The notes beneath the pieces were generated by a model that saw only the letters and a list, made by a program, of their open reading frames with translations, was not told where the DNA came from and did no database searches. A stretch of 64,000 nt of DNA from Candidatus Latescibacterota bacterium. GTDB taxonomy: Bacteria > Latescibacterota > UBA2968. Location of the stretch: the NCBI GenBank assembly GCA_965222605.1, contig OZ244960.1, forward strand, positions 6,176,001 to 6,240,000, read 5' to 3'. Position numbers and translations under genes: made by a program. Shown here one piece after another: positions 23,937-27,739 of this stretch; position 1 is the first letter of the stretch, and each line of letters opens with the position of its first letter.

Positions 23937-24081
23937 TGGAGAGAAATTTCACATATTCTACATTTTTTGTCAACCTGAAAATGGAATATGCCGCTGATAT
24001 TGACATGTGGGGCATTGCAGATTATCATGGAATAAGGATAGTTTAGACCAATCCATGTTTGAATTACACAAGGAGATTTTT

Positions 24082-25488
24082 ATGAATATAGTAGTAATTT
24101 GCTGCGATACGTTTCGCGCAGACATTGTTGGAGCAGGTAAAAAGTTGAGCCATGTGAAAACTCCTCATTTAGATCAGTTGGCTTCTGAGGGCTTGACTTT
24201 TGATCGCTGTTTTGCAGAGGGCTTGCCGACGATTCCGTTTCGGCGGTGTGTTTTTACGGGTATCCCATCTTTTCCCTGGCGGTTTGACACGCCGAATGAA
24301 GGACTACAGCCGGCAGGCTCTGGCTGGCATCCGATTCCGCCAGAGCAGGATACACTCGCGGAACGCTTGCACGATGCGGGTTTTGTCACGGGCCTGGTCG
24401 CGGATACCTATCACATGTTTAAGCCGACGCAGAATTTCACGCGGGGTTTTTTGTCGTGGCGCTTTATTCGCGGGCAGGAACAAGATGGATATCGCTCGGG
24501 GCCGCTATCGCGTATTGATCTGGCAGCACATGTGAGGGACGGAGATGCAGATCCCAGAAAACATGCGGTGATTGTTCAGTATTTGCTCAATATGCTGGAT
24601 CGGCAGGAAGGCGAAGAGAATTATCTCGCCGCTCAAGTGTTCCGCGAGGCATCGCAATGGGTAGAGGACAATAGGGGCAACAAGCCGTTTTTTCTATGGA
24701 TTGACAGCTTTAGCCCACACGAGTTATGGGATCCGCCCAGGCAGTATGCCGATGCCTATTTTTCAGATCCCTCGGTGAAGGATTATATCCACCACCGTGC
24801 CTTGTCCTTTGGCGATGCGACAGATGCGGAAATCGAGCGCACAAAAGCGTTGTATATGGGCTATGTCACGTTTGTGGATCGCTGGATTGGGCATTTATTG
24901 GAAACGATTGACCGATTGAATTTGCGGGACGATACGGTGGTGATGTTCATATCCGATCACGGCACGCAATTGATGGATAGGGGGCGGTTTGGCAAGGGCG
25001 GTAACGCGCTTTTTCCATTTAATACGCAGATCAATTGGGTCGTGCGCCACCCGGATGGACCGCGCGGACAGCAAACGGATATCTGGACGCAGAATCAGGA
25101 TATTACTCCGACGATTCTCAATATGCTGGACGTTGAGTACGAAGAGATGGATGGGGCAGATGCATGGGCAGGTGCAATGGGTGGAGCTGAACCTGCTCGG
25201 GATTATATCACAACGGGATGGGGAACGAGTTTTAATGTGCGGGATGATCGCTATAGCGTACACATGGATGTGGGAACAAGATCGCCACAGGCGACGGTTT
25301 ACGATTTGAGTGTGGATGCCGATGAGGAAAATCCCTTGAGCGATCCGCCCCGCGAAGTCGTCGCGCAGGCATTGGAACGGGCGCGTACTGTGATTGGCGA
25401 TTTTCCCGATGTGTTTAGTGCGTACAAACAAAGACACGCGGCACGGGCGATGCGGACGTTCATGAACAAGTATAATATTGGAACGTGA
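24082..25488 (+). CDS. Sulfatase-like hydrolase (alkaline phosphatase superfamily) with Thr at the nucleophile position
   Basis: NIVVICCDTFRAD, TPHLD, LPTIPFRR (aligns to C/SxPxR), DSFSPHE, SDHG; AAGGAG RBS. Confidence 0.85.
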   Translation: MNIVVICCDTFRADIVGAGKKLSHVKTPHLDQLASEGLTFDRCFAEGLPTIPFRRCVFTGIPSFPWRFDTPNEGLQPAGSGWHPIPPEQDTLAERLHDAGFVTGLVADTYHMFKPTQNFTRGFLSWRFIRGQEQDGYRSGPLSRIDLAAHVRDGDADPRKHAVIVQYLLNMLDRQEGEENYLAAQVFREASQWVEDNRGNKPFFLWIDSFSPHELWDPPRQYADAYFSDPSVKDYIHHRALSFGDATDAEIERTKALYMGYVTFVDRWIGHLLETIDRLNLRDDTVVMFISDHGTQLMDRGRFGKGGNALFPFNTQINWVVRHPDGPRGQQTDIWTQNQDITPTILNMLDVEYEEMDGADAWAGAMGGAEPARDYITTGWGTSFNVRDDRYSVHMDVGTRSPQATVYDLSVDADEENPLSDPPREVVAQALERARTVIGDFPDVFSAYKQRHAARAMRTFMNKYNIGT

Positions 25489-25700
25489 TTACTCCCAACG
25501 ATAGAGCAGTTGGGCTTCTTGGCGGTCAAGCCACCTGACTTTGTAATCCCAAAGTCAATATGTTTATCGCAGCATTGAGGTCTCTGTCCGTCATATAGCC
25601 ACACGCCTTACAATGATGCACACGCTGAGAAAGTGCTTTCTTCTCTCTATGTCCGCATGCCGAGCAATCTTGTGAGGTGTATTCAGGATTTACGGCCTTG
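25485..25700 (-). ncRNA. Predicted TnpB omega (re)RNA scaffold; 5' boundary approximate, guide read from 25484 leftward
   Basis: TnpB reRNAs derive from the 3' end of tnpB plus the right end; hairpins TGACTTTG..CAAAGTCA and CCCAAC..GTTGGG are present. Confidence 0.6.
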
Positions 25701-26650
25701 AATCCAATACCAGCTTCTTCCGCTTTGTATTCGAGACAATGCCGAAACAGTGACCATGCTACGTCTGCTATTGATTTAGACAATCGCCTATTCTTTTGCA
25801 TCGTTTTAACTTTCAACTTCTCGACGGCTATGAAGCCGTGACGATTGACAATTTTTCTTGATTCTTGATGGGCAAAGTTATGTCGCTTATTACGGATACG
25901 CTCATGCACTCTGGCAATTACTTTACGACGCTTTTCTCTTACGGCGTCGGTCTTAGGTCTTTTTTTTACCGCGTCCCATTTGCGCTGTGCTTTTGTAAGT
26001 GATTTTTGCTCTTTTCTAAAGAATCGCTGGTTGGCTATCGTCTCGCCATCACTGGTTACAGCAAAGGAATTGAGACCCACGTCAATGCCTGTTGGCGGAC
26101 GTTGCTCGTCGCAAGATTTTGGCTCGCCCATATCACAAGAAATAGTAGCGAACCACTTGCCCGTTGCCGTACGCGTGACTGTGCAAGATTTAGGAACGCC
26201 GTCAAGTGGCCTGTGCTGGACAATCCGAATACAGCCTATTTTGCCCAATCGCAAGCCCTTATCGTCCAATCGGCATCCATTGGAAAACTGAGGGTAGGTG
26301 ATAGAATCATAGCGATTCTGACCCTTGTATCTGGGAAAGCCAGCTTTCTCGCCCGTCTTTGCTTTTTCTTTGAGGCGACGAAAGAATGCTTTGAATGCCA
26401 GATCAACTCTTGTTGATACTTGTTGCAATACTTGACTATAGACTTGCTGGAATGCAAGACGCTGTTGCTTTATCAATGGTATTGTTTTGGTCTGGTCGTG
26501 ACGAGACAGAGACTTATTTTCACTTTCCCATGCTTGCACTCTATCACAGACAAGCTGGTTATATAGCAAGCGACATTCTTCAATATGTGCCAACAAGACT
26601 TTCTCTTGCTTTTTCGTTGGGCGCAATCTGTATTTGAAGGACTTAAGCAT
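25526..26650 (-). CDS. tnpB: RNA-guided endonuclease TnpB
   Basis: FKYRLRPT N-terminus, GFPRYK, RuvC GIDVG / VEKL / DRDLNAA, zinc finger CSAC..CKAC, all intact. Confidence 0.97.
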   Translation of the reverse strand: MLKSFKYRLRPTKKQEKVLLAHIEECRLLYNQLVCDRVQAWESENKSLSRHDQTKTIPLIKQQRLAFQQVYSQVLQQVSTRVDLAFKAFFRRLKEKAKTGEKAGFPRYKGQNRYDSITYPQFSNGCRLDDKGLRLGKIGCIRIVQHRPLDGVPKSCTVTRTATGKWFATISCDMGEPKSCDEQRPPTGIDVGLNSFAVTSDGETIANQRFFRKEQKSLTKAQRKWDAVKKRPKTDAVREKRRKVIARVHERIRNKRHNFAHQESRKIVNRHGFIAVEKLKVKTMQKNRRLSKSIADVAWSLFRHCLEYKAEEAGIGFKAVNPEYTSQDCSACGHREKKALSQRVHHCKACGYMTDRDLNAAINILTLGLQSQVA

Positions 26651-26656
26651 AATAAA

Positions 26657-26685
26657 AATATATACTTATGTGCAATTTTTGTCAA
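26657..26685 (-). promoter_or_regulatory. tnpB promoter, probably giving a leaderless mRNA
   Basis: TTGACA-17 nt-TATATT, then 6 nt to the ATG; no SD sequence. Confidence 0.65.
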
Positions 26686-26842
26686 GCGAAATAGAATAAA
26701 AATATGGTCAGCGTACCAAAAACGCATAGTTCGTCTTTAACGATATGGCAATGTTCATATACGCTAAAGCTAAAAAAGGAAGCCCTCATATCCCACGCCT
26801 AAAGGACGTGGGTTTTACGGGCTATTTGATAAGGGGCTGAAT

Positions 26843-27739
26843 TTGAACTATACTGTTGAACAACATCCCGACCATAACCGGCTGTACCACATCACAATTG
26901 ATGCCGATGTCGCGGCGAGATTTGTGCGCGAGGTCGAAGATTTTTCGGAACAGCGATTGATTTATGTGCCGTATCTGAGACTGATCGCTGCGGATCACTT
27001 GCAAAACATCGTCGGTGGTGATTTCTCCGAGCATATCAATGCAATCGTTAGAGACCGCGCAACCGGCGGATTTACCCTTGCTGTTGCGGGTGGGTTTGAG
27101 ACGATGGATCAGCGCGTTGCTTTTGGCACGGCTGTTTCACATGCGATCGGGGTGCCCAATTTTGACGATATGACGGGGAATTATTACGCCTGTTTTGAGG
27201 TAAAGGATACGGATAGTAGCGATTCGTATTTGCGTCAGGCATATCGACTGTTCACGCTCCATACCGATGGCACATACATCCGCGAGCGCACAGACTGGAT
27301 TTTGATGATGAAGATGGCAGAGCACGATGCGGTGGGGGGGGAGTCGCGGCTGTTGCATTTGGATGATTGGGAGGCGTTAGAGCGATTTGCCAGTCATCCG
27401 TTGGCTTCTTTGCCTCTGGTCTATCACTCGCCGCCGAGTAAGAATTATCCCGTTAGGGTTGAAAAAACGACGTTTTACGAACAAGACGGCAAAGCATGCG
27501 TGTGTTTTATCGATCAGTTTGTTTATCCCGAGACCATTGAACAGGGCCGATATCTGCGCGATCTGTCCGATTCGATGGAAGCGTCGCAGGGAGTGGTCTC
27601 TGTGCCCTTGCCACCCGATCATCTCGTGGTGCTCAACAACCATTTCTGGCTGCACGGACGCGAAGCGTTTGAGAAACATCCCAATCTCTATCGCTTGTTG
27701 ATGCGACAGAGGGGATATTTCAGGAAGGTAAACGATTAA
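26843..27739 (+). CDS. glaH: Glutarate dioxygenase GlaH/CsiD (Fe/2-oxoglutarate)
   Basis: DSSDSYLRQAYR..LHTDGTY, GGESRLLHLDDW, FIDQFV.P, NNHFWLHGR, RLLMRQRG; TTG start after AAGGGG. Confidence 0.88.
   Translation: MNYTVEQHPDHNRLYHITIDADVAARFVREVEDFSEQRLIYVPYLRLIAADHLQNIVGGDFSEHINAIVRDRATGGFTLAVAGGFETMDQRVAFGTAVSHAIGVPNFDDMTGNYYACFEVKDTDSSDSYLRQAYRLFTLHTDGTYIRERTDWILMMKMAEHDAVGGESRLLHLDDWEALERFASHPLASLPLVYHSPPSKNYPVRVEKTTFYEQDGKACVCFIDQFVYPETIEQGRYLRDLSDSMEASQGVVSVPLPPDHLVVLNNHFWLHGREAFEKHPNLYRLLMRQRGYFRKVND

What the first reader, a model, noticed from the sequence alone, without database searches (positions are those of the whole stretch)
25465..26845. TnpB element inserted silently into a stop-codon junction, with ends, TAM and guide all readable
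Seen: the sulfatase-like gene ends AAT ATT GGA ACG TGA, and GTGA (25485-25488) is the reverse complement of the element's terminal TCAC. Joining 25484 to 26829 gives AAT ATT GGA ACA TAA GGGG CTGAAT TTG, which encodes the same N-I-G-T-stop followed by the glaH RBS and start. The IS therefore supplies a synonymous Thr base and a new stop codon while splitting a former two-gene operon. Known: IS200/IS605 elements insert 3' of a short target without duplication, and guide tetranucleotides 5' of each hairpin specify the cleavage sites. AAAA/TTAT and GAAG/TCAC here fit the IS608 pairing pattern. Inference: the TAM is TTAT and the guide is GTTCCAATATTATACTTGTT. A TTAT target paired with a TCAC end would generally turn antisense insertion at A-TAA into G-TGA, a built-in safe-harbour mechanism at gene ends.
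Basis: partly seen in the sequence, partly recalled or inferred. Interest (0 to 1): 0.72.

Follow-up and report, generated by a model that had tools for sequence, protein, structure and literature searches.

The report
TnpB transposon swapping a stop codon
A small TnpB-carrying transposon sits exactly on the stop codon of a sulfatase gene and replaces that stop with its own, leaving the protein unchanged; the element is an ordinary kind, but the same stop-for-stop swap recurs at about one in seven of its insertion sites in this genus.

Summary
Window 25485..26828 (minus strand, 1344 bp) is a TnpB-only IS200/IS605-family element.

- **Ends.** 21 of 22 right ends in this genome, and 112 of 114 in the genus, finish in TCAC. 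The left end lies directly after TTAT in 13 of 20 left-end matches.
- **Empty site.** In 12 of 14 same-genus genomes the sulfatase 3' end abuts the glaH leader. Six of these read ATAA at the junction. One metagenome contig joins 25484 to 26829 exactly.
- **Effect.** The insertion changed ACA TAA to ACG TGA, which is still Thr-stop, and moved glaH 1344 bp away.
- **Cleavage rule.** Guide and cleavage tetranucleotides covary across subfamilies: AAAA/TTAT, AAGT/TTAA, AAAG/TTAC, GAAG/TCAC and CAAG/TGAC.
- **Recurrence.** An antisense gene ends on the element's terminal TGA at 15 of 99 unique sites in the genus. For 11 of these sites an empty orthologue has its stop codon at that exact position.
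- **Enrichment.** This is about twice what site availability predicts (7-8%; p 0.003-0.02).
- **Limits.** Other TnpB families in the same genome end in TGAC or TCGA and cannot regenerate a stop.

I read the swap as a by-product of the T-Y-A-N cleavage sites, filtered by selection. An evolved safe harbour is not shown. The element is a new member of a known kind with a tidy, recurrent side effect.

The parts
25485..26828 (-). Whole IS200/IS605-family (IS1341-type, TnpB-only) element, 1344 bp
   Evidence: The boundaries are shared with 21 other right ends and 13-15 left ends in the genome. The empty sites in relatives and the contig joint 25484->26829 fix them to the base.
26829..26832 (-). TTAT target / TAM (ATAA on the + strand). 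Its TAA was the sulfatase stop codon before insertion. It is not part of the element.
   Evidence: TTAT directly precedes 13 of 20 left-end matches. It precedes 10 of the 17 left ends found among the 22 right-end loci, plus 2 with a one-base offset. The relatives' empty sites read NNA TAA here.
26813..26816 (-). Left guide tetranucleotide AAAA, 5' of the left hairpin foot
   Evidence: Read from the sequence. It covaries with the flanking tetranucleotide in other subfamilies. The IS608 rule comes from passages of PMC3201880.
26792..26812 (-). Left subterminal hairpin (6-bp stem CCCACG/CGTGGG, 9-nt loop), the presumed TnpA binding site
   Evidence: Read from the sequence. It is nearly identical to the hairpin beside the genome's only full Y1 transposase gene.
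26657..26685 (-). Promoter-like site TTGACA-17-TATATT (11 of 12) just upstream of tnpB
   Evidence: Consensus scan only.
25526..26650 (-). tnpB, 374 aa, uninterrupted. It has GIDVG at 188, AVEKL at 275, two CxxC pairs at 329 and 347, and DRD at 355-357.
   Evidence: Pfam. It aligns over residues 3-366 to the solved 'RNA-guided DNA endonuclease TnpB', E 1.1e-50.
25485..25640 (-). Right end and presumed guide-RNA (omega/reRNA) scaffold, overlapping the tnpB 3' end. The extent is approximate.
   Evidence: The last 160 nt stay 88-92% identical in copies that are 78-80% identical overall. Two stems show compensatory changes among 96 distinct right ends. No Rfam family matched.
25494..25514 (-). Right subterminal hairpin (CCCAAC/GTTGGG)
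   Evidence: Read from the sequence.
25515..25518 (-). Right guide tetranucleotide GAAG
   Evidence: Read from the sequence. It pairs by the IS608 rule with the terminal TCAC. Families with CAAG end in TGAC.
25485..25488 (-). Terminal TCAC of the element. On the + strand it reads GTGA and supplies the third base of the last Thr codon and the new TGA stop of the sulfatase gene.
25465..25484 (-). Flank directly 3' of the right end: the presumed guide (16-20 nt), complementary to the last sulfatase codons
   Evidence: Position by analogy with ISDra2, whose guide is about 16 nt of flank (passages of PMC8612924). Not measured here.
24007..25488 (+). Sulfatase-family gene whose stop codon now lies inside the element (start codon uncertain)
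   Evidence: Orthologues occur in 20 of 20 same-genus genomes.
26843..27739 (+). CsiD/GlaH-family dioxygenase gene. In relatives it starts 10-11 nt behind the sulfatase stop; here it lies 1354 nt from it.

Best explanation
**What it is.** Window 25485..26828 is a non-autonomous IS200/IS605-family element of the TnpB-only (IS1341) type. It has no transposase gene of its own.

**How it moved (inferred).** The genome's single Y1 (IS200-like) transposase probably moved it in trans as a single strand. That enzyme's own element carries an almost identical hairpin. The element was pasted 3' of a TTAT on the strand opposite to the sulfatase gene.

**Why the protein is unchanged.** That TTAT is the complement of A+TAA, the last base of the final Thr codon plus the stop. 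The element's own last four bases are TCAC, the complement of G+TGA. The gene therefore now reads ACG TGA instead of ACA TAA. The protein is the same, but glaH is pushed 1344 bp downstream.

**How the sites are chosen.** Both cleavage sites are set by base pairing with the four bases 5' of each hairpin: AAAA with TTAT and GAAG with TCAC. This is the IS608 mechanism.

**Presumed TnpB role (inferred).** The intact TnpB, with an RNA made from the right end, would carry about 16-20 nt of flank as its guide. It would cut the vacated TTAT-plus-flank site to restore the element, as shown for ISDra2.

**Why the swap recurs.** The stop-for-stop swap follows mechanically from the T-Y-A-N form of both cleavage sites. 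It recurs because such insertions leave the upstream gene intact and pass purifying selection.

**Shown versus inferred.** Shown: the ends, the target, the empty allele, the recurrence and the covariation. Inferred: trans-mobilisation by that TnpA, the guide RNA, TnpB cleavage, and selection as the cause of the enrichment.
For: **Family and ends.** The three TnpB Pfam domains are present. The protein aligns to solved TnpB at E 1.1e-50. The own genome holds 22 right ends, 21 of them TCAC, and the genus 112 of 114. TTAT precedes 13 of 20 left-end matches.

**No target duplication, precise junction.** 12 of 14 relatives have an empty site. A contig joint links 25484 to 26829.

**Guide/cleavage covariation.** AAAA goes with TTAT. 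AAGT goes with TTAA in 3 of 4 copies. AAAG goes with TTAC in 1 copy. GAAG goes with TCAC in 3 sister left ends and in all right ends. CAAG goes with TGAC in 5 of 6 right ends of other families.

**Transposase.** There is one full Y1_Tnp gene (E 9e-41) beside a near-identical hairpin.

**TnpB kept intact.** 20 of 22 right-end loci keep open frames of 377-385 codons, although the copies are only 70-96% identical in DNA.

**Structured right end.** One stem pair reads TA in 42 and GC in 48 of 96 distinct sequences.

**Recurrence.** 15 of 99 unique sites are stop swaps. All 4 such sites in the own genome, and 7 in relatives, have an empty orthologue with its stop codon exactly at the junction.

**Enrichment.** Observed 15-17% against 7.4-8.2% expected, p 0.003-0.01. 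Against the local control: 15 of 33 versus 27%, p 0.019.
Against: - No RNA evidence was obtained for the guide RNA. The RNA run that was laid gave only contigs, and none was specific to this copy. No Rfam family matched.
- The TnpA link rests on hairpin similarity alone. By the same pairing rule, its own element seems to use other cleavage tetranucleotides (my reading).
- The enrichment is only about 2-fold. It rests on a home-made gene caller and on null counts taken from one genome.
- Stop-swap sites are not shared between species more often than other sites (2 of 15 versus 9 of 84). Longer persistence is therefore not evident.
- Element orientation shows no replichore bias. This neither helps nor hurts.
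Confidence: 0.8

Rival explanations
1. Evolved safe harbour. The TTAN target and the TCAC terminus of this family were selected because together they make antisense insertions at stop codons harmless. Gene ends would then be a preferred landing site, not just a tolerated one.
For: Stop-junction sites are about 2-fold over availability. ATAA is the commonest stop context in this genome (611 of 4986 called genes) and GTGA the second (585). All left-end targets seen in this family (TTAT, TTAA, TTAG, TTAC) contain the complement of TAA.
Against: T at position 1 and A at position 3 of the cleavage sites are shared with IS608's TTAC (PMC3201880), where DNA-DNA pairing sets the site, so they need no such selection. 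Three other TnpB families in the same genome end in TGAC or TCGA, which give no stop. The last residue is changed at 2 of the 4 own-genome sites. The stop swap still breaks operon junctions. Survival bias alone can produce the enrichment.
Confidence: 0.2
2. Pure coincidence. This copy happens to sit on a stop codon, and the family has no real excess there.
For: In the own genome alone only 4 of 22 sites are stop swaps. Against a 7.4% null this is not significant by my estimate, which I did not compute in any call. The null depends on how intergenic sites are counted.
Against: 15 of 99 unique sites in the genus are stop swaps. 11 of them are confirmed by empty orthologues with the stop at the exact base. 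Three different nulls give p between 0.003 and 0.02.
Confidence: 0.1
3. The element is ancestral at this locus, and the empty alleles in relatives and in the metagenome arose by precise excision.
For: IS200/IS605 excision is precise and leaves the target intact (passages of PMC3201880). An excised site would therefore look like a never-occupied one.
Against: None of the 14 related species examined has the element at this locus. Three of the empty sites read ATAG and three ATGA, which are not TTAT targets. The nearest copy in the genome is 96% identical, so this copy is a young branch of the family.
Confidence: 0.05

Closest known systems
IS608 of Helicobacter pylori (IS200/IS605 family)
   Same: Both have subterminal hairpins at each end and lack terminal inverted repeats and a target duplication. 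Both insert 3' of a tetranucleotide that pairs with the four bases 5' of the left hairpin. In both, the right-end cleavage site lies inside the element (PMC3201880 passages). The pairing pattern fits TTAC with AAAG. For TCAA with GAAT, GAAT is my recollection and was not found in the text searched.
   Different: The target is TTAT, not TTAC, and the terminus is TCAC, not TCAA. The spacing is 16 nt from the cleavage site to the left hairpin foot (19 in IS608). TCAC starts 5 nt after the right hairpin foot, whereas IS608's site lies 10 nt from it. The element has no tnpA.
ISDra2 of Deinococcus radiodurans and its TnpB/reRNA
   Same: The TnpB aligns over residues 3-366 to the solved 'RNA-guided DNA endonuclease TnpB' chains 8bf8, 8ex9 and 8h1j (E 1.1e-50). 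That these chains are ISDra2 TnpB is my recollection. The tnpB 3' end and right end are conserved and structured, as expected for a reRNA of about 150 nt with about 16 nt of flank as guide (PMC8612924 passages).
   Different: ISDra2 uses the pentanucleotide TTGAT, whose complement holds no stop codon, and it carries tnpA. RNA and cleavage were not tested here.
IS1341-type (TnpB-only) elements
   Same: Both carry only tnpB between IS605-like ends and occur as many diverged copies per genome with few or no tnpA genes. An example is the haloarchaeal expansion described in PMC3119063 (passage).
   Different: Here 20 of 22 copies keep an intact reading frame. In Haloquadratum most were reported as disrupted.
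IS605-derived stem-loops overlapping the 3' ends of Borrelia lipoprotein genes
   Same: An IS605 end sequence overlaps the last 8 nt of a coding region and its TAA stop (PMC2775950 passages). That paper also cites other inverted repeats that overlap the 3' ends of genes.
   Different: Those are remnants without a transposase gene. No stop-for-stop replacement tied to the target and terminus tetranucleotides was described in the passages I saw.

Membership tests
IS200/IS605 family | No terminal inverted repeats and no target-site duplication | tested here: met
   The ends are not inverted repeats of each other. Empty sites in 12 of 14 relatives and one contig joint show a clean 1344-bp insertion with nothing duplicated.
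IS200/IS605 family | Subterminal hairpins at both ends | tested here: met
   The left hairpin is at 26792-26812 and the right hairpin at 25494-25514. The right-hairpin pairs are kept in 82-96 of 96 distinct copies.
IS200/IS605 family | Insertion 3' of a specific tetra- or pentanucleotide, with cleavage sites paired to guide bases 5' of the hairpins | tested here: met
   TTAT precedes 13 of 20 left-end matches. Five different guide/cleavage pairs follow one rule.
IS200/IS605 family | Y1 HUH transposase TnpA | tested here: not met
   The 178 nt between the left end and tnpB hold no tnpA. The genome has one full Y1_Tnp gene elsewhere. The element is therefore a non-autonomous, TnpB-only member.
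IS200/IS605 family | Single-strand 'peel and paste' transposition | not testable with these tools
   This needs transposition assays. Element orientation shows no replichore bias, which is uninformative.
TnpB (OMEGA) RNA-guided nucleases | Domain set HTH, OrfB_IS605 (RuvC) and zinc-ribbon TNB, with catalytic acidic residues | tested here: met
   Pfam E-values are 2.8e-10, 3.5e-21 and 1.6e-24. The GIDVG, AVEKL and DRD motifs and two CxxC pairs are present. The protein aligns to solved TnpB.
TnpB (OMEGA) RNA-guided nucleases | Guide RNA from the right end that reads into the flank | tested here: inconclusive
   Right-end conservation and two covarying stems fit this. No Rfam match was found and no usable RNA reads were available.
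TnpB (OMEGA) RNA-guided nucleases | TAM-dependent cleavage of double-stranded DNA | not testable with these tools
   This needs a TAM-library cleavage assay.

The most novel reading that the evidence does not exclude
In the IS608-like branch of IS200/IS605, structure constrains both cleavage sites to T-Y-A-N, which is the reverse complement of N-TAA or N-TGA. Antisense insertion on a stop codon therefore always rebuilds a stop in the same frame. Under this reading, gene ends act as a general, so far unremarked low-cost landing class. This would help explain how TnpB-only elements reach dozens of intact copies in compact genomes. Lineages whose termini keep the property should spread better than those that lost it.
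Probability: 0.25. Interest if true: 0.6.

Novelty: new member of a known kind. Interest (0 to 1): 0.45.

Why it matters
The element itself is a routine TnpB transposon, but two things make this copy useful.

**A fully resolved natural example.** Both ends, the target/TAM, the presumed guide and the empty allele are fixed to the base. Five guide/cleavage pairs in one genus extend the IS608 pairing rule with natural covariation.

**A simple, checkable rule.** The complements of the target (TTAN) and of the terminus (TCAC) are both stop codons in the same register. An antisense insertion on a stop codon therefore leaves the upstream protein intact, or changed in one residue. This happened at 15 of 99 independent sites here.

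If the pattern holds in other IS608-like families, it is a cheap way for a transposon to lower its cost. It would also matter for annotation, because the stop codon of such a gene belongs to the mobile element. Insertions of this kind still split operon junctions. Here they separate a sulfatase gene from glaH, so the insertion is silent for the protein but not necessarily for expression.

Tried and rejected
- **Rfam** scan of 25300-27000 at E <= 1 gave only a chance snoRNA match.
- **Stop-to-stop open frames as a gene proxy** gave nulls from 7% to 36% depending on the length cut-off. I replaced them with a hexamer-trained gene caller (4986 genes, 88.9% coding).
- **Two long open frames ending on the element's TGA** (own 1963274 with 236 codons; L051 with 201 codons) had negative coding scores and were not counted.
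- **A class of 10 sites where a sense gene seemed to start at a TTG 14 nt inside the right end** is most likely an artefact. My caller extends each frame to the first start codon. I made nothing of it.
- **Replichore orientation:** 5 plus and 8 minus on one arm, 3 plus and 6 minus on the other. No bias.
- **Persistence:** stop-swap sites are shared by two or more genomes in 2 of 15 cases, other sites in 9 of 84. No difference.
- **Control with TnpB families whose right end cannot rebuild a stop (TGAC):** only 6 copies in the own genome and at most 5 in any relative, too few to test.
- **A promoter-like TTGATA-17-TATACT spanning the left junction (26826-26854, + strand)** has its -10 box inside the glaH coding region, so it cannot serve glaH.
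- **RNA run X15** gave contigs only. One carries a right end with a different flank, so it says nothing about this copy's RNA.
- **Literature.** (0 papers), with passages read, turned up no description of a stop-for-stop swap by an IS200/IS605 element. The nearest was the Borrelia overlap (PMC2775950). Barabas et al. 2008 (PMC2680152) is not held. The GAAT guide of IS608 and the identity of the PDB chains as ISDra2 are recalled.
- **Not run:** Structure prediction, complex prediction, the search for homologous proteins and the atlas search. The family assignment was already clear.

Full report
**What is at the coordinates.** The sulfatase-family ORF 24007..25488 (+) ends ...GGA ACG TGA. On the minus strand lies a 374-aa ORF (25526..26650). 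A CsiD/GlaH-family ORF starts with TTG at 26843. Pfam gives Sulfatase (E 1.3e-37) and CsiD (E 1.3e-114). For the minus-strand ORF it gives the three TnpB domains HTH_OrfB_IS605, OrfB_IS605 and Cas12f1-like_TNB. The TnpB aligns over residues 3-366 with the solved 'RNA-guided DNA endonuclease TnpB' chains (E 1.1e-50). It carries GIDVG, AVEKL and DRD motifs and two CxxC pairs. A promoter-like TTGACA-17-TATATT site lies just upstream of it.

**Ends.** The genome (one contig, 6.34 Mb) has 34 DNA matches to the region, 20 of them near full length at 70-96% identity.
- All 22 right-end matches stop at the base that corresponds to 25485. 21 end in TCAC and one in TCAT.
- Of 20 left-end matches, 13 start right after TTAT and two more after TTAT with a one-base offset. 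One follows TTAC, three of a sister family follow TCAC, and one is a spurious short match.
- It has no tnpA. The genome has one full Y1 transposase gene (E 9e-41). The hairpin next to that gene is almost the same as this element's left hairpin.

**Empty allele.**
- The sulfatase 3' end has an orthologue in 20 of 20 same-genus genomes.
- In 12 of the 14 loci fetched, the sulfatase 3' end runs straight into the glaH leader. The four bases at the junction are ATAA (6), ATAG (3) or ATGA (3).
- The other two loci carry an unrelated 80-100-nt repeat behind the stop.
- G014 shows the predicted junction letter for letter.
- Public metagenome contigs add one record in run X3 that joins 25484 to 26829, skipping 1344 bases. 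The same run also has a contig across the occupied left junction. This is a single contig with 30 letters on its shorter side, so it supports the finding but does not stand alone.
- The insertion thus turned ACA TAA into ACG TGA and separated two genes that in relatives lie 10-11 nt apart.

**Cleavage-site rule.** In IS608 the four bases 5' of each hairpin foot pair with the cleavage tetranucleotide (passages of PMC3201880).
- Here AAAA sits before the left hairpin and the target is TTAT. GAAG sits before the right hairpin and the terminus is TCAC.
- Other subfamilies in the same genome change both partners together:
  - AAGT with TTAA, in 3 of 4 copies (the fourth has TTAG);
  - AAAG with TTAC;
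  - GAAG-type left ends with TCAC, in 3 of 3;
  - right ends of two other TnpB families, CAAG with TGAC, in 5 of 6.
- Guide base 1 pairs with site base 2, and guide base 4 with site base 4.

**Right end as RNA.**
- The last 160 nt stay 88-92% identical in copies that are 78-80% identical overall.
- Among 96 distinct right ends from the genus, one stem pair is TA in 42 and GC in 48. Another is TG 21, CG 56, TA 15.
- This fits a guide-RNA scaffold like the roughly 150-nt reRNA of ISDra2, whose last 16 or so bases come from the flank (passages of PMC8612924).
It is an inference: no Rfam family matched and the RNA run gave nothing specific.
- 20 of 22 right-end loci keep open TnpB frames of 377-385 codons.

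**Is the stop-codon hit more than luck?** I collected right ends from the genus.
- *Data set.* 17 of 21 genomes have right ends. I took 92 flanks from relatives plus 22 from the own genome. These 114 records collapse to 99 unique sites.
- *Method.* I trained a hexamer-based gene caller on this genome (4986 genes) and applied it to the flanks.
- *Result.* At 15 of 99 sites an antisense gene ends on the element's terminal TGA. A looser open-frame criterion gives 17.
- *Real genes.* The three other genes of this class in the own genome carry HEAT or FG-GAP domains.
- *Empty orthologues.* They have their stop codon at exactly the junction for all 4 own-genome sites: 12 of 14, 11 of 11, 11 of 11 and 9 of 11 relatives. 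The same holds for 7 of the 10 relatives' sites that have a match in this genome. Three were unresolved and two had no match.
- *Expectation from site availability in this genome.* There are 611 ATAA stop junctions against 7599 intergenic ATAA/TTAT sites, or 7.4%. With the same open-frame criterion as the test the figure is 8.2%, giving p = 0.003 for 17 of 99, and p = 0.011 and 0.008 at stricter scores.
- *Local control.* Among antisense insertions within 150 nt of a gene end, 15 of 33 are exactly on the stop. From 611 stop sites and 1631 downstream ATAA sites, 27% is expected (p = 0.019).
- *Verdict.* The excess is real but about 2-fold.

**What limits the 'built-in safe harbour' idea.**
- The last codon stays synonymous only for TTAT-type copies (NNA to NNG). 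At two own-genome sites with TTAG/TTAA-type left ends, the final residue changed Ser to Arg and Ile to Met.
- Five further sites show the antisense gene running 20 nt into the element to a TAG. This is a tail swap, not a silent hit.
- Other TnpB families in this genome end in TGAC or TCGA, which give no stop on the complement. They are too rare in the genus to serve as a control.
- Stop-swap sites are not shared between species more often than other sites (2 of 15 against 9 of 84).
- T at position 1 and A at position 3 of both sites are features shared with IS608. I therefore read the swap as a by-product of the T-Y-A-N cleavage sites, made visible by purifying selection.
- The insertion is silent for the sulfatase protein. 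It still splits a tight gene pair, and I could not measure the effect on glaH.

**Comparison with what is known.** The element meets the tested family features of IS200/IS605 except for a tnpA of its own, which places it with the TnpB-only (IS1341-type) members.
- It differs from IS608 in target, terminus and spacings.
- It differs from ISDra2 in using a tetranucleotide whose complement is a stop.
- Five literature searches and the passages read gave no description of a stop-for-stop swap tied to the target and terminus.
- The nearest item is the overlap of IS605-derived stem-loops with the last 8 nt and TAA of Borrelia lipoprotein genes (PMC2775950).
- Supplements were closed and many journals are not held, so I cannot say the idea is unpublished.

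**Verdict.** The element is a new member of a known kind. The recurrent stop swap is a neat, modestly enriched consequence of its end sequences, worth testing across other IS608-like families. Interest 0.45.

Noticed in passing
L039 (G008) and L044 (G020), directly behind the sulfatase stop codon; related pieces in the own genome, e.g. near G000 positions 2653000, 418670 and 3637780: Two relatives carry a different small repeat (103 and 81 nt) at the same sulfatase-glaH junction. It has a short tandem motif followed by a G+C-rich hairpin. The own genome has 14 partial matches. This junction has therefore been hit by at least two kinds of mobile DNA.
   Followed up: partly
L046 (G000:352899-356258), tnpA at L046 1456..1920 (-): This is the genome's only full Y1 (IS200-like) transposase gene. 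Its flanking hairpins closely resemble the window element's left hairpin. By the pairing rule its own ends would use TTAG on the left and TTAC on the right, but I did not confirm its boundaries with an empty site.
   Followed up: partly
Own genome, e.g. G000 5557410 (+), 5491566 (-), 2320447 (+), 6032017 (+); and 2955978, 5764811, 5828105, 3678187, 4817094: There are 14 further TnpB genes in at least three other families. Their right ends finish in TGAC (guide CAAG) or TCGA. The left ends of one family lie after TCAC (guide GAAG).
   Followed up: partly
99 unique right-end flanks in the genus: At 31 of 99 sites a gene on the same strand as tnpB starts within 150 nt of the right end (21 called there, plus 10 that my caller ran into the element). 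At 5 sites an antisense gene runs 20 nt into the element to a TAG, replacing its last few residues.
   Followed up: partly
window 26826..26854 (+) and 25536..25557 (+): A promoter-like TTGATA-17-TATACT is created across the left junction, but its -10 box lies inside glaH. A weak terminator-like hairpin (the complement of a right-end stem) follows the new sulfatase stop. Both are consensus matches only.
   Followed up: no
Own genome, gene calls: ATAA is the commonest stop-codon context (611 of 4986 called genes) and GTGA the second (585). The swap therefore goes from the commonest context to the next commonest.
   Followed up: no
G000 5482098 (-), 5359888 (+), 1449078 (-): Solo ends of the family occur without a tnpB: a 77-nt right end and left-end pieces of 85 and 37 nt. 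They are remnants or miniature derivatives.
   Followed up: no
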